6,061 bases of DNA. Origin: a virus. Its lineage: Duplodnaviria; Heunggongvirae; Uroviricota; Caudoviricetes. The translations under genes were made by a program, and so were the position numbers. Position 1 is the first letter of the stretch. Each line of letters begins with the position of its first letter. The stretch lies in the IMG/VR virus record IMGVR_UViG_2734482558_000010; one strand, written 5' to 3'. Shown piece after piece: positions 4,318-5,518 of this stretch. The notes below the pieces were generated by a model. That model was not told where the DNA came from, made no database searches, and saw only the letters and a list, made by a program, of their open reading frames with translations.

Positions 4318-4398
4318 CCGCCATTAGCTTATCAGGAAGAGCAGACGACACGATAACAGGGTTGTTGGTGCGGGGGCGGGTCCCCGATGGCGGTCCAT
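4318..4398 (+). pseudogene. Degenerate tRNA-like sequence (pseudo-tRNA): acceptor CCGCCAT/ATGGCGG, canonical-looking D-arm, non-canonical anticodon and T loops
   Basis: CCGCCAT TA GCTT ATCAGGAA GAGC ... CGGGG GCGGGT CCCCG ATGGCGG T CCA. The T-loop is 6 nt (GCGGGT) rather than TTCRANY, and the anticodon loop lacks U33. The intact-looking version of its 3' end recurs at 5402-5427. Confidence 0.3.
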
Positions 4399-4487
4399 TA
4401 TCGGTATTCAGCGTTGTTAGCTCAGCCGGACAGAGCAATTGCCTTCTAAGCAATCGGTCACTGGTTCGAATCCAGTACAGCGCGCCA
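4380..4487 (+). repeat. Direct repeat copy 1 (108 bp: tRNA-like 3' segment, spacer, tRNA-Arg); copy 2 at 5411-5518
   Basis: The two copies differ only in the 9-nt spacer (CGGTATTCA versus CTGCATCAT) and at one acceptor-stem base (G versus A); they flank ORF117, the small ORF and the N run. Confidence 0.85.
4411..4487 (+). tRNA. argN: tRNA-Arg (anticodon UCU; argN/argO-like), 77 nt with encoded CCA
   Basis: Acceptor GCGTTGT/ACAGCGC (one G-U pair), D-arm GCTC AGCCGGACA GAGC, anticodon arm ATTGC CTTCTAA GCAAT (TCT), T-arm ACTGG TTCGAAT CCAGT, discriminator G, CCA. Confidence 0.85.
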
Positions 4488-4624
4488 TATTCATTCTTCC
4501 AGATTCCTTCCGGCAGAGCCTTATACTGAAATATACCTGGCTCAGGATATTGTTGAAAATATTTTATGTTTGTCAAAAATAAAAGTTCTGTTAAGTATTG
4601 ATTGAGTGTTTGTTATACGGTCTA

Positions 4625-4951
4625 ATGGTTTTTTCAGCATTAAATATTTATCATTCATATGGTGTGGGTAGAGTGAATATTGATGAGGCGTCGGGGTGTT
4701 TCATCCTTAGGCAGCGTATTGATATAGTCAATGCAGCACGAGCAAAGGCCTTCAGCCGTTTGACAGTTTTGTTCTGTACTCCTGATCGTCTTTCGGGAAG
4801 AGACGTTATTATTCTGAATAGTGATGCTATACAGAGGGTTTGCGATGAGTTCATGGTTGCTAATTCAGAATTATTTGCTCTTGTTCAGGAGTACAACAGA
4901 ATAGCCAGGACCTGTGGTATGGATGAACTTCGGATTACTCATCTGGGGTAG
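4625..4951 (+). CDS. Hypothetical protein (ORF117; 108 aa from the ATG at 4625), candidate prophage moron of unknown function
   Basis: Track ORF 4598-4951 starts at a TTG inside an AT-rich region; the first in-frame ATG is 4625 and GTG candidates are at 4664 and 4673. Enriched in rare codons ATA, AGA and AGG (about 8 in about 110 codons). No family recognised. Confidence 0.4.
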   Translation: MVFSALNIYHSYGVGRVNIDEASGCFILRQRIDIVNAARAKAFSRLTVLFCTPDRLSGRDVIILNSDAIQRVCDEFMVANSELFALVQEYNRIARTCGMDELRITHLG

Positions 4952-5031
4952 ATACATATCTGGATTATCACCTGTTACGGTAAAAAGTGATTGCTTACTG
5001 TTTTTGTGAATGGCATTGCAGCAGCCGGATA

Positions 5032-5118
5032 ATGTCAGTGCTGGCTGACGGTGTGCTGGTGGCGGGTGTGGTGGTTGTTGCTTTCCCGTTGCTGAAAAAG
5101 AAAACGCCAGACTGTTAG
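5032..5118 (+). CDS. Possible small hydrophobic peptide, 28 aa (MSVLADGVLVAGVVVVAFPLLKKKTPDC)
   Basis: ATG at 5032, TAG at 5116-5118; hydrophobic core followed by a KKK cluster; weak ribosome-binding site (GGA at 5026-5028). Ends 14 nt before the N run. Confidence 0.2.
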   Translation: MSVLADGVLVAGVVVVAFPLLKKKTPDC

Positions 5119-5132
5119 CCGGGTATCAGTTA

Positions 5133-5401
5133 NNNNNNNNNNNNNNNNNNNNNNNNNNNNNNNNNNNNNNNNNNNNNNNNNNNNNNNNNNNNNNNNNNNN
5201 NNNNNNNNNNNNNNNNNNNNNNNNNNNNNNNNNNNNNNNNNNNNNNNNNNNNNNNNNNNNNNNNNNNNNNNNNNNNNNNNNNNNNNNNNNNNNNNNNNNN
5301 NNNNNNNNNNNNNNNNNNNNNNNNNNNNNNNNNNNNNNNNNNNNNNNNNNNNNNNNNNNNNNNNNNNNNNNNNNNNNNNNNNNNNNNNNNNNNNNNNNNN
5401 N
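5133..5401. other. 269-nt run of N (masked or unresolved sequence)
   Basis: Continuous n from 5133 to 5401. The first bases after it (GGGGTTCAAGTCCCCGATGGCGGTCCA) look like the T-arm, acceptor 3' strand and CCA of a tRNA whose 5' part would lie in the gap. Confidence 0.95.
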
Positions 5402-5441
5402 GGGGTTCAAGTCCCCGATGGCGGTCCATTATCTGCATCAT

Positions 5442-5518
5442 GCGTTGTTAGCTCAGCCGGACAGAGCAATTGCCTTCTAAGCAATCGGTCACTGGTTCGA
5501 ATCCAGTACAACGCGCCA
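5442..5518 (+). tRNA. argO: tRNA-Arg (anticodon UCU), second copy (argO-like), 77 nt with encoded CCA
   Basis: Identical to the 4411-4487 tRNA except A for G at the acceptor 3' strand, which makes the acceptor stem fully Watson-Crick (GCGTTGT/ACAACGC). Confidence 0.85.

What the first reader, a model, noticed from the sequence alone, without database searches (positions are those of the whole stretch)
4380..5518. Cargo insertion between two direct copies of the tRNA-Arg(UCU) unit
In the tRNA islands of lambdoid phages I recall (ileZ-argN-argO downstream of Q), the two tRNA-Arg genes are adjacent. Here two near-identical 108-bp units (4380-4487 and 5411-5518) are separated by about 920 bp. That interval holds an AT-rich putative promoter region, ORF117, a 28-aa hydrophobic ORF and a 269-nt masked stretch. 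The position (after Q/pR', before the expected lysis genes) is the classic moron slot that holds stx in Stx phages. Because no known toxin or defence family is recognisable, this is the best candidate in the window for an undescribed cargo module.
Basis: partly seen in the sequence, partly recalled or inferred. Interest (0 to 1): 0.65.

Follow-up and report, generated by a model that had tools for sequence, protein, structure and literature searches.

The report
Common prophage moron; scaffold-gap tRNA repeat
The 'cargo' is a real but common two-gene accessory cassette of unknown function in E. coli/Shigella lambda-like prophages, and it only appears to sit between two tRNA-Arg genes because an unresolved assembly gap joins two separate prophage modules.

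Summary
The two tRNA-Arg(UCU) units exist (4380-4487 and 5411-5518, 94% identical; the tRNAs differ at 1 of 77 nt). But the second unit lies beyond a 269-N run, and the window is a scaffold bounded by IS600 ends.

In sibling assemblies that are 99.98-100% identical, the left part (to 5132) continues gap-free into a second STnc100 allele and iraM. The right part (from 5402) is preceded gap-free by a DNA methyltransferase gene and a complete ileZ-argN-argO island. None of 5,426 complete E. coli genomes, and none of 110 IMG/VR contigs, has a tRNA-Arg within 650-700 nt after the cargo. So 'cargo flanked by two tRNA-Arg copies' is not established and is most likely a scaffolding artefact.

The interval itself is real. 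It is a 632-bp AT-rich indel (4501-5132) between argO and STnc100, in the Q-to-lysis moron slot. It is present in 1,183 of 5,426 complete genomes and in phage mEp460_ev081.

It encodes:
- a conserved 92-aa protein (the real core of ORF117; phrog_2873; predicted helical hairpin)
- a 43-aa single-pass membrane peptide (DUF3927, TciB-like)

Its function is unknown, with no defence-family match. This is a known kind of element, and interest is low.

The parts
1..101 (-). Terminal ~100 nt of an IS600 copy (inverted relative to the right end); a contig end inside a repeat
   Evidence: Perfect 99-nt inverted repeat with 5963-6061. In the sibling scaffold L008 this sequence continues into an element that PGAP names 'IS3-like element IS600 family transposase' in E. 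coli genomes.
3278..4132 (+). Late antiterminator Q (284 aa)
   Evidence: ORF. Pfam Antiterm PF03589 on the identical protein in sibling contigs. Annotated 'antitermination protein' in related genomes.
4172..4197 (+). Intrinsic terminator just after Q (tR'-like); the tRNAs and cargo lie downstream of it
   Evidence: 7-bp G+C stem followed by a T run. The tR' assignment is inferred from its position after Q.
4235..4310 (+). tRNA with CAU anticodon (ileZ-type; PGAP calls it tRNA-Ile in relatives)
   Evidence: ARAGORN, Rfam tRNA 72.5 bits, PGAP tRNA-Ile in L002-L007.
4318..4398 (+). Degenerate remnant of the middle tRNA (argN, UCG). The acceptor strands are kept; the anticodon and T arms are replaced.
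   Evidence: Alignment to intact islands. Not called by ARAGORN or by Rfam at E<=1. Not annotated in relatives L003 and L004.
4411..4487 (+). tRNA-Arg(UCU), copy 1 (argO-type)
   Evidence: ARAGORN, Rfam 68 bits.
4501..5132 (+). 632-bp AT-rich accessory cassette (moron-like indel) between argO and the STnc100 locus
   Evidence: Boundaries come from comparing loci with and without it. GC 41.5% against 50%. At least 80% of it is present in 1,183 of 5,426 complete genomes. 99.2% identical in phage mEp460_ev081.
4673..4951 (+).
   Evidence: phrog_2873, E 3.8e-70. Homologues at 32-63% identity are all 91-95 aa. The exact 92-aa sequence is a public 'MULTISPECIES hypothetical protein' seen on 210 contigs. 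About 92 of 107 IMG/VR loci keep an intact reading frame with 0-2 substitutions. AlphaFold2 gives two long helices, pLDDT 69.
4987..5118 (+). DUF3927 / TciB-like 43-aa peptide with one transmembrane segment and a KKK tail
   Evidence: PF13064, 95.6 bits against a cut-off of 25. phrog_1470 'TciB-like', E 7.8e-13. PGAP 'DUF3927 family protein' WP_000562553.1 in relatives. Hydropathy peak 2.47 over residues 15-36.
5133..5401 (.). Run of 269 N: unresolved gap joining two separately assembled pieces
   Evidence: Sibling scaffolds carry N runs at equivalent junctions. They place 1,277-3,049 nt between the two sides.
5402..5428 (+). 3' end (T arm, acceptor strand, CCA) of an intact argN-type tRNA-Arg(UCG) whose 5' part lies in the gap
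   Evidence: Alignment to intact islands. ARAGORN finds tRNA-Arg(tcg) at the equivalent place in L015, 7581-7657.
5442..5518 (+). tRNA-Arg(UCU), copy 2 (argO-type) of the second tRNA island
   Evidence: ARAGORN, Rfam 70.1 bits. 100% identical to the methyltransferase-linked island in siblings.
5533..5558 (+). Terminator hairpin (GGCTCGC/GCGGGCC) plus T8 after argO. Cargo-bearing loci keep only its 3' half.
   Evidence: Read from the sequence and compared with L015, L016 and L017.
5595..5784 (+). STnc100-family prophage sRNA locus
   Evidence: Rfam RF02076, 123.6 bits against a gathering score of 47, E 1.2e-27.
5962..6061 (+). Terminal ~100 nt of a second IS600 copy

Best explanation
The window is a draft-assembly scaffold of a Shigella/E. 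coli Qin-like lambdoid prophage region. Each end stops about 100 nt inside an IS600 copy.

Piece 1 (1-5132) reads: hok/sok, DUF968, rusA, Q, tR', ileZ, a decayed argN, argO, then a 632-bp moron.

Piece 2 (5402-6061) is the tail of a different late-gene module (hypothetical gene, DNA methyltransferase, ileZ, argN, argO, terminator, STnc100). The 269 N between them is an unresolved gap, not 269 nt of known DNA. The 'direct repeat' is therefore the argO end of two paralogous tRNA islands. The cargo is not bracketed by them at about 920 bp.

In the real genome the cargo is most likely followed, as everywhere else, by 10 nt, a second STnc100 allele and iraM. The second island then lies kilobases downstream or in another prophage.

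The cargo itself is a genuine and common moron in the Q-to-lysis slot. It has two genes: ORF92, a soluble helical-hairpin protein, and a TciB-like DUF3927 single-pass inner-membrane peptide.

Inferred, not shown:
- It is read through from pR' after Q antitermination during lytic growth, and possibly from its own AT-rich upstream region in lysogens.
- The membrane peptide, with ORF92 as partner or regulator, acts at the cell envelope. Possible roles are lysogenic conversion or exclusion, or an effect on division or lysis timing.
- It is dispensable for phage growth.
For: Structure:
- The ends are IS600.
- Ten sibling contigs carry the identical Q protein. Eight of them contain N gaps, seven within or next to these modules.
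- Window 2954-5132 is 100% identical to L010, and 2-5132 is 99.98% identical to L015. Both continue with GCGGGAGAAA, a 96% STnc100 allele and iraM. L010 and L017 are gap-free across this stretch.
- Window 5402-6061 is 100% identical to stretches of L008, L010, L015 and L016, and 5402-5963 to stretches of L009, L011, L012, L013 and L014. In L009-L016 these are preceded by a DNA methyltransferase gene and ileZ-argN (gene tables; L015 tRNAs); L010 and L014 are gap-free there.
- L014 joins window 52-4197 directly to that module without any N.
- The distance between the two sides is 1,277-3,049 nt in sibling scaffolds, against 270 here.
- No complete E. coli genome out of 5,426 covers both sides in the window's order.
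- Of 120 IMG/VR contigs with the exact cargo end, 110 have at least 600 nt downstream. None has argN-3' or argO within 700 nt.
- Two variants of the right junction exist (GCGGG... in 113 contigs, TCTGG... in 7). A genome holding both would break a de Bruijn contig exactly after 5132.
- Closed genomes CP019689 and CP109775 show Q(284 aa), ORF92, DUF3927, iraM, DUF1737, then an IS.

Cargo:
- Present in 1,183 of 5,426 complete genomes and in phage mEp460_ev081.
- GC 41.5%.
- Family matches.
- ORF92 family alignment and intact frame in about 92 of 107 loci.
- One transmembrane segment in DUF3927.
- The same slot holds tciA(TerB)+tciB in phage JLK-2012, and an AraC-type regulator plus an ORF92 homologue in L019.
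- P1 tciA, tciB and tciC scored non-essential by CRISPRi (PMC10695390).
Against: - I could not retrieve the source record. So I cannot prove that the N run is the assembler's gap rather than a mask laid over real sequence.
- Complete Shigella genomes were covered only through two closed genomes whose copy is 97% identical. A strain-specific rearrangement is therefore not excluded.
- Six of the ten sibling scaffolds place the methyltransferase/tRNA module downstream of the cargo module in the same orientation, four of them adjacently. The two islands may therefore truly be neighbours a few kb apart.
- Nothing tested supports any particular function for the cargo. Promoter-like hits are not above shuffled expectation (4 found against 2.0 +/- 1.7). 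There is no terminator at its 3' end. The fold search gave nothing (best E 0.2). RefSeq's PGAP annotation lists no gene at ORF92 in the complete genomes examined.
Confidence: 0.8

Rival explanations
1. The arrangement is real. In this strain the cargo is followed, after about 269 nt of real sequence, by a second partial or complete tRNA island. The cassette would then be bracketed by direct argO repeats, which could duplicate or delete it by homologous recombination.
For: The window as given shows it. Six of the ten sibling scaffolds put the second module downstream of the first in the same orientation, four of them adjacently. Shigella genomes rich in IS600 rearrange often (IS600 ends).
Against: The only link is a run of N. 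Siblings identical at 99.98-100% resolve both flanks differently and gap-free. Scaffold distances range from 1,277 to 3,049 nt. 0 of 5,426 complete genomes and 0 of 110 viral contigs show it. The gapped pattern found nothing in viral contigs or genome contigs. The STnc100 after copy 2 is the allele of the methyltransferase-linked module (100%), not that of the cargo-linked module (96%).
Confidence: 0.08
2. The two islands are true neighbours but several kb apart, as tandem late-gene modules: ...argO, cargo, STnc100', iraM, truncated Q', hypothetical gene, methyltransferase, ileZ-argN-argO, STnc100, IS600. The N run then merely under-states a gap of about 2.5-3 kb.
For: L011, L015 and L016 independently join the cargo contig to the same truncated Q' start (equivalent to window 3681) across 1-11 N. 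L008 and L013 also place the methyltransferase/tRNA module after it.
Against: All those joins are themselves across N gaps of inconsistent size. L014 and L009 link the same Q directly to the methyltransferase module, which suggests two prophages sharing a near-identical Q region and scaffolders confused by it. The closed genomes CP019689 and CP109775 have an IS, not Q', after iraM-DUF1737.
Confidence: 0.3
3. The cargo is decaying, non-functional DNA. ORF117/ORF92 is not a gene, and only the DUF3927 remnant is annotated.
For: RefSeq's PGAP annotation lists no gene at ORF92 in the complete genomes examined. The family is tiny, 21 clusters among 1.84 billion representatives. There is no convincing promoter or Shine-Dalgarno sequence.
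Against: Homologues at 32-63% identity keep a length of 91-95 aa and a conserved core, FSRLTVLFCTPDR...ANxEL...EYN. The frame is intact with 0-2 substitutions in about 92 of 107 loci. It has its own PHROG. Homologues sit in the same post-Q slot in distant prophages.
Confidence: 0.1

Closest known systems
Moron slot between Q/tR'/tRNA genes and the lysis cassette of lambdoid and Stx phages (order rusA, Q, DNA methylase, tRNA genes, stxAB, yjhS/nanS, S, R; PMC3491183)
   Same: The gene order and position are the same. The cassette is present or absent between otherwise collinear prophages. It is AT-rich relative to its flanks and lies downstream of tR'.
   Different: It carries two small genes of unknown function instead of stx. 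No promoter or terminator of its own could be shown.
[quoted passage not shown]
   Same: The 43-aa product is a DUF3927/TciB-like peptide. In JLK-2012, tciB sits in the same slot after Q and a tRNA cluster. In P1 the tci genes also lie near tRNA genes and scored non-essential.
   Different: The upstream partner here is ORF92 (phrog_2873), not the TerB-domain TciA. There is no tciC. No tellurite, colicin or division phenotype has been tested for this family.
ileZ-argN-argO tRNA island of Stx and lambdoid phages
   Same: Both islands here are alleles of it: CAU, UCG and UCU tRNAs in that order downstream of Q. Stx-phage records annotate the matching stretch as ileZ, argN and argO.
   Different: The first island has lost argN function (degenerate remnant). 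Only the last 117 nt of the second island are visible. The two 'copies' are two argO genes from separate modules, not a split argN/argO pair.
Integrative elements flanked by direct repeats of a tRNA 3' end (attL/attR)
   Same: There is a superficial resemblance: tRNA-containing direct repeats on both sides of an AT-rich insert.
   Different: There is no integrase. The repeats are whole tRNA genes plus upstream sequence. The insert abuts only one tRNA in all resolved sequences. Contiguity is not established.

Membership tests
Direct-repeat-flanked insertion (cargo bracketed by two tRNA-Arg copies) | Both repeat copies are contiguous with the insert on one DNA molecule | tested here: not met
   The copies are linked only by 269 N. 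Identical siblings resolve both flanks differently. 0 of 5,426 complete genomes and 0 of 110 viral contigs show it.
Direct-repeat-flanked insertion (cargo bracketed by two tRNA-Arg copies) | The empty site equals a single repeat copy, that is, the insertion duplicated or split the tRNA unit | tested here: not met
   The empty site is argO, an intact terminator and STnc100. The filled site replaces 12 nt of the terminator and duplicates nothing.
ileZ-argN-argO tRNA island | Three tRNA genes (CAU, Arg, Arg) in tandem downstream of Q | tested here: inconclusive
   Island 1 has CAU and Arg(UCU) detected, but the middle tRNA is degenerate. Island 2 shows only the argN 3' end and argO in the window. 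It is complete (CAU, UCG, UCU) in siblings.
Moron (accessory cassette of lambdoid phages) | Present or absent between otherwise homologous genomes, at a gene boundary | tested here: met
   Loci with it (L002-L005) against loci without it (L006, L007), with precise boundaries.
Moron (accessory cassette of lambdoid phages) | Base composition differs from the neighbouring genes | tested here: met
   41.5% GC against 50-51%.
Moron (accessory cassette of lambdoid phages) | Own promoter and terminator, with expression from the repressed prophage | tested here: inconclusive
   Consensus promoter hits: 4 found against 2.0 +/- 1.7 expected. There is no terminator at the 3' end, and the flanking argO terminator is disrupted. 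Expression cannot be tested with these tools.
Pfam DUF3927 (PF13064) / PHROG 1470 TciB-like | Score above the curated Pfam gathering threshold | tested here: met
   95.6 bits against 25, E 1.7e-27. phrog_1470, E 7.8e-13.
Pfam DUF3927 (PF13064) / PHROG 1470 TciB-like | Tellurite or colicin resistance, or a cell-division phenotype | not testable with these tools
   The name is derived from homology. The only functional datum found is that P1 tciB scored non-essential (PMC10695390).
PHROG 2873 (unknown function) | Full-length profile match | tested here: met
   E 3.8e-70, profile positions 1-108 of 108.
Known anti-phage defence systems (PADLOC-DB 2.0) | A match of either cargo protein to a defence-system model | tested here: not met
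   No hits at E<=0.1.

The most novel reading that the evidence does not exclude
ORF92 and the DUF3927 membrane peptide form an uncharacterised two-component lysogenic-conversion module. It might act in superinfection exclusion or abortive infection, colicin tolerance, or envelope or division modulation. It would be carried as an interchangeable cassette in the stx slot of about a fifth of E. coli genomes. ORF92 would replace the TerB-like TciA as partner of the TciB-like peptide.
Probability: 0.25. Interest if true: 0.45.

Novelty: already known. Interest (0 to 1): 0.13.

Why it matters
Mainly as a caution. A repeat pair that spans an N run in a prophage-rich, IS-rich draft assembly should not be read as biology. 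Paralogous late-gene modules are routinely mis-joined by scaffolders. The positive residue is modest. A very common two-gene cassette sits in the slot that carries Shiga toxin in other phages, and it has no assigned function. Its 92-aa gene is not listed in the RefSeq annotation of the genomes examined. It would be a cheap target for knock-out or over-expression tests in phage mEp460 or in lysogens.

Tried and rejected
1. I searched for the window's exact arrangement with a gapped pattern (cargo end, N{255,285}, argN 3' end). It found 0 matches in viral contigs and 0 in genome contigs.

2. I queried the 5,426 complete E. coli genomes with a chimeric sequence (last 150 nt of the cargo plus 159 nt of copy 2). 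The best places only paired the cargo end with the upstream tRNA island, 767 nt span and 90% coverage.

3. I tried to find the source record through a strain-specific protein. The only difference from the siblings is an intergenic SNP at 1306, so no unique protein exists.

4. I looked for a function for ORF92:
- Pfam and NCBIfam gave nothing. A sub-threshold RHIM hit (12.8 bits against a cut-off of 20) was rejected as chance.
- PADLOC gave nothing.
- AlphaFold2 gave a generic two-helix hairpin at pLDDT 69.
- Foldseek against viral structures had no hit at E<=0.001.

5. An exhaustive profile search of 1.84 billion representatives found only 21 clusters, all short hypothetical proteins.

6. Literature searches turned up no characterisation of this cassette. 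'ileZ argN argO' found no paper. 'DUF3927' found two papers, which I did not read (one listed, a single occurrence). 'TciB' alone gave mostly unrelated hits.

7. I considered an integrative element at a tRNA gene and rejected it. There is no integrase, no partial-tRNA att duplication, and the empty site is intact.

8. I considered whether the N run hides stx-like or other cargo and rejected it. What lies to its right is the 3' end of argN, so the hidden part must contain at least the 5' part of a tRNA island.
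Full report
**What is in the window**

The 6,061-nt window is the late-regulatory region of a Qin-like lambdoid prophage. In order it carries:
- sok/hok (Rfam sok 112 bits at 939-1114; HOK_GEF gene)
- a DUF968 gene, rusA, and a 284-aa Q antiterminator (3278-4132)
- a terminator directly after Q (4172-4197)
- a CAU tRNA (4235-4310) and tRNA-Arg(UCU) (4411-4487)
- an AT-rich interval holding ORF117 and a small hydrophobic ORF
- 269 N (5133-5401)
- a second tRNA-Arg(UCU) (5442-5518), a terminator, and an STnc100-family sRNA locus (5595-5784, 123.6 bits)

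The first 99 nt and the last 99 nt are perfect inverted repeats. They are the outermost ~100 nt of IS600. So the sequence stops inside a repeat at both ends, as a short-read contig does.

**Checking the observation**

The two units are real. The repeat 4380-4500 / 5411-5531 is 91% identical. The 108-nt units have 6 mismatches, and the tRNAs differ at 1 of 77 nt.

They are not an argN/argO pair pulled apart. Alignment with intact islands shows the following:
- The first island is ileZ, a degenerate argN remnant (4318-4398), then argO. The remnant is not detected by ARAGORN or by Rfam.
- Positions 5402-5428 are the T arm, acceptor strand and CCA of an intact argN-type tRNA. In siblings this tRNA has anticodon UCG. 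Its 5' part lies in the N run.

The repeat is therefore the overlap of two alleles of a whole three-tRNA island. The second allele is seen only from its last 117 nt onwards.

**Is the second copy really 920 bp downstream?**

Three lines of evidence say this is not established and is probably wrong.

*1. Sibling assemblies.* A look-up of the exact Q protein returned ten sibling contigs. Eight of them contain N gaps, seven within or next to these modules.
- Window 2-5132 is 99.98% identical to L015, and 2954-5132 is 100% identical to L010.
- In the siblings that contain it (L008-L011, L013, L015-L017), 5132 is followed by GCGGGAGAAA and a 96% STnc100 allele. iraM follows in L008, L010, L011 and L017; the L009, L013, L015 and L016 contigs take a different course after that allele. 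L010 and L017 are gap-free across this stretch.
- Window 5402-6061 or 5402-5963 is 100% identical to stretches of the same scaffolds. In L009-L016 these are preceded by a hypothetical gene, a DNA methyltransferase gene, ileZ and argN. L010 and L014 are gap-free there.
- L014 links window 52-4197 straight to that module.
- The scaffold distance between the two sides is 1,277-3,049 nt in the siblings, against 270 here.

*2. Complete genomes.* Among 5,426 complete E. coli genomes, two arrangements are common and the window's combination is absent:
- Q, (hypothetical gene, methyltransferase), ileZ, argN, argO, terminator, STnc100. Window 5402-5800 is contiguous in at least 1,737 genomes.
- Q, ileZ, (argN), argO, cargo, 10 nt, STnc100.

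*3. IMG/VR contigs.* Of 120 contigs holding the exact 25-mer at the cargo's right end, 110 have at least 600 nt downstream. None has an argN 3' end or argO within 700 nt. Of the 101 contigs with at least 900 nt upstream, 82 have argO upstream, 79 of them at the same 697-nt spacing as here. The right junction exists in two variants (GCGGG... and TCTGG...). A genome with both would break a de Bruijn contig exactly after 5132.

Two closed genomes carrying a 284-aa Q and the identical ORF92 (CP019689, CP109775) show cargo, STnc100', iraM, DUF1737, then an IS.

I could not recover the source record. So I cannot prove that the N run is the depositor's gap rather than a mask. Either way a discontinuity must lie inside it, because the sequences that flank it in identical siblings do not meet.

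**What the interval is**

Comparing filled and empty sites gives a clean 632-nt indel at 4501-5132. Similarity to the empty site continues for about 13 nt after argO. It resumes at the 3' half of the argO terminator (GCGGG, then the T/A run). So the cassette replaces 12 nt, disrupts that terminator and duplicates nothing.

It is 41.5% GC against about 50% in the flanks. At least 80% of it is present in 1,183 of 5,426 complete genomes. It is 99.2% identical in phage mEp460_ev081.

*ORF117* is an over-extended call.
- The profile search of 1.84 billion representatives found only 21 clusters. The diverged members (32-63% identity) are all 91-95 aa and start where GTG 4673 lies.
- The exact 92-aa product is a public 'MULTISPECIES hypothetical protein' seen on 210 contigs.
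- It matches phrog_2873 at E 3.8e-70.
- About 92 of 107 IMG/VR loci keep the frame intact with 0-2 substitutions.
- AlphaFold2 gives two long antiparallel helices (pLDDT 69). There is no significant fold match.

*The small ORF* is DUF3927.
- PF13064 scores 95.6 bits. It also matches phrog_1470 'TciB-like'.
- It is 43 aa as annotated by PGAP, with one hydrophobic segment and a KKK tail.

Neither protein hits PADLOC.

**Context of the slot**

The same position between the post-Q tRNAs and the STnc100/nanS/lysis genes holds different content in different prophages:
- nothing, in loci L006 and L007
- tciA (TerB domain) plus tciB, in Stx-type phage JLK-2012
- an AraC-type regulator plus an ORF92 homologue, in L019
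- stxAB in Stx phages, as described in PMC3491183

A 40%-identical ORF92 homologue also sits after a different Q and a tRNA-Thr. Some IMG/VR loci share only the 3' end of the DUF3927 gene, behind a different upstream gene. So the cassette is itself mosaic.

**How it most likely works**

Shown: the cassette lies downstream of Q and tR'. It is optional. It encodes one soluble protein and one membrane protein, both conserved.

Inferred:
- It is transcribed with the late operon after Q antitermination, and perhaps from its AT-rich 5' region in lysogens. Promoter-like hits are not above chance.
- The TciB-like peptide inserts in the inner membrane, and ORF92 acts with it.
- The effect is on the envelope. 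Candidates are exclusion, colicin or tellurite tolerance, or division or lysis timing.

The P1 homologues tciA, tciB and tciC carry those names by homology only and scored non-essential in a CRISPRi screen (PMC10695390). I put about 0.35 on an envelope-directed accessory role. The rest is spread over other accessory roles and over no function at all.

**Comparison with the known, and verdict**

As a kind of element, this is a known moron in a known slot. Its two genes already belong to catalogued families of unknown function. The feature that made it look unusual, a cassette bracketed by two tRNA-Arg copies, fails its defining test of contiguity. It is best explained by a scaffold gap between two paralogous late-gene modules in an IS600-rich genome.

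- Novelty: already known.
- Interest: low, 0.13.
- Most novel reading still open: the ORF92/DUF3927 pair is an uncharacterised conversion or exclusion module (probability about 0.25, interest about 0.45 if true).

Noticed in passing
window 1-101 and 5962-6061: Perfect 99-nt terminal inverted repeat. Both ends are the outermost ~100 nt of IS600 copies in opposite orientation, so the 5.9-kb prophage fragment is bracketed by inverted IS600 copies. The 99-nt overhang looks like an assembler k-mer length (my inference; sibling L015 starts 98 nt into the same IS).
   Followed up: yes
window 939-1264: Complete hok/sok type I toxin-antitoxin locus. Rfam sok scores 112 bits at 939-1114. The 70-aa ORF at 1052-1264 contains the hokD-type toxin.
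   Followed up: no
window 1273-1354: Sub-threshold Rfam hit to the IsrK Hfq-binding RNA (25.8 bits against a gathering score of 50), ending in a terminator-like hairpin just after hokD. The only SNP separating this window from its siblings (G/T at 1306) lies here.
   Followed up: no
window 5595-5784 and 5823-6011: Strong STnc100 match (123.6 bits), followed by a weak second STnc100-like match (21.8 bits) that runs into the IS600 end. Siblings carry a distinct 96% STnc100 allele after the cargo. A 2026 preprint (10.64898/2026.05.13.724894) relates STnc100 to the prophage sRNA PasD.
   Followed up: partly
window 4318-4398: Decayed middle tRNA (argN). The acceptor strands and D-arm region are kept, but the anticodon and T arms are replaced by unrelated sequence. 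The same remnant is present in E. coli strain 2D (L003; alignment), and strains 2D, 042 and 64 and phage mEp460_ev081 likewise show only two tRNAs here. The O104:H4 prophage keeps all three tRNAs in front of the same cargo.
   Followed up: partly
window 3278-4132: The Q antiterminator is 284 aa here, against 273 aa in most related prophages. The exact 284-aa sequence was found only on contigs of 200 kb or less (385 index blocks). This points to a lineage that is sequenced often but has few or no closed genomes.
   Followed up: no
L019 164-1261 (Logan SRR29325574): A 57%-identical ORF92 homologue lies directly downstream of a 241-aa AraC-family (HTH_18) regulator and upstream of an STnc100-like sequence. 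This is another alternative cassette for the same slot, and a possible hint that ORF92 proteins travel with regulators.
   Followed up: partly
L008-L016 (sibling NCBI draft scaffolds): Scaffolds from several public draft assemblies string together repeated prophage late modules (rusA-Q, methyltransferase, tRNAs, DUF3927, iraM) across 1-71 N, in mutually inconsistent orders. Gene-order inferences from these records are unreliable.
   Followed up: partly
IMG/VR loci L031 onwards: About 15 of 107 loci share only the last ~60 nt of the DUF3927 gene (...VVVAFPLLKKKTPDC) behind a different upstream sequence. This suggests a recombination breakpoint inside the small gene.
   Followed up: no
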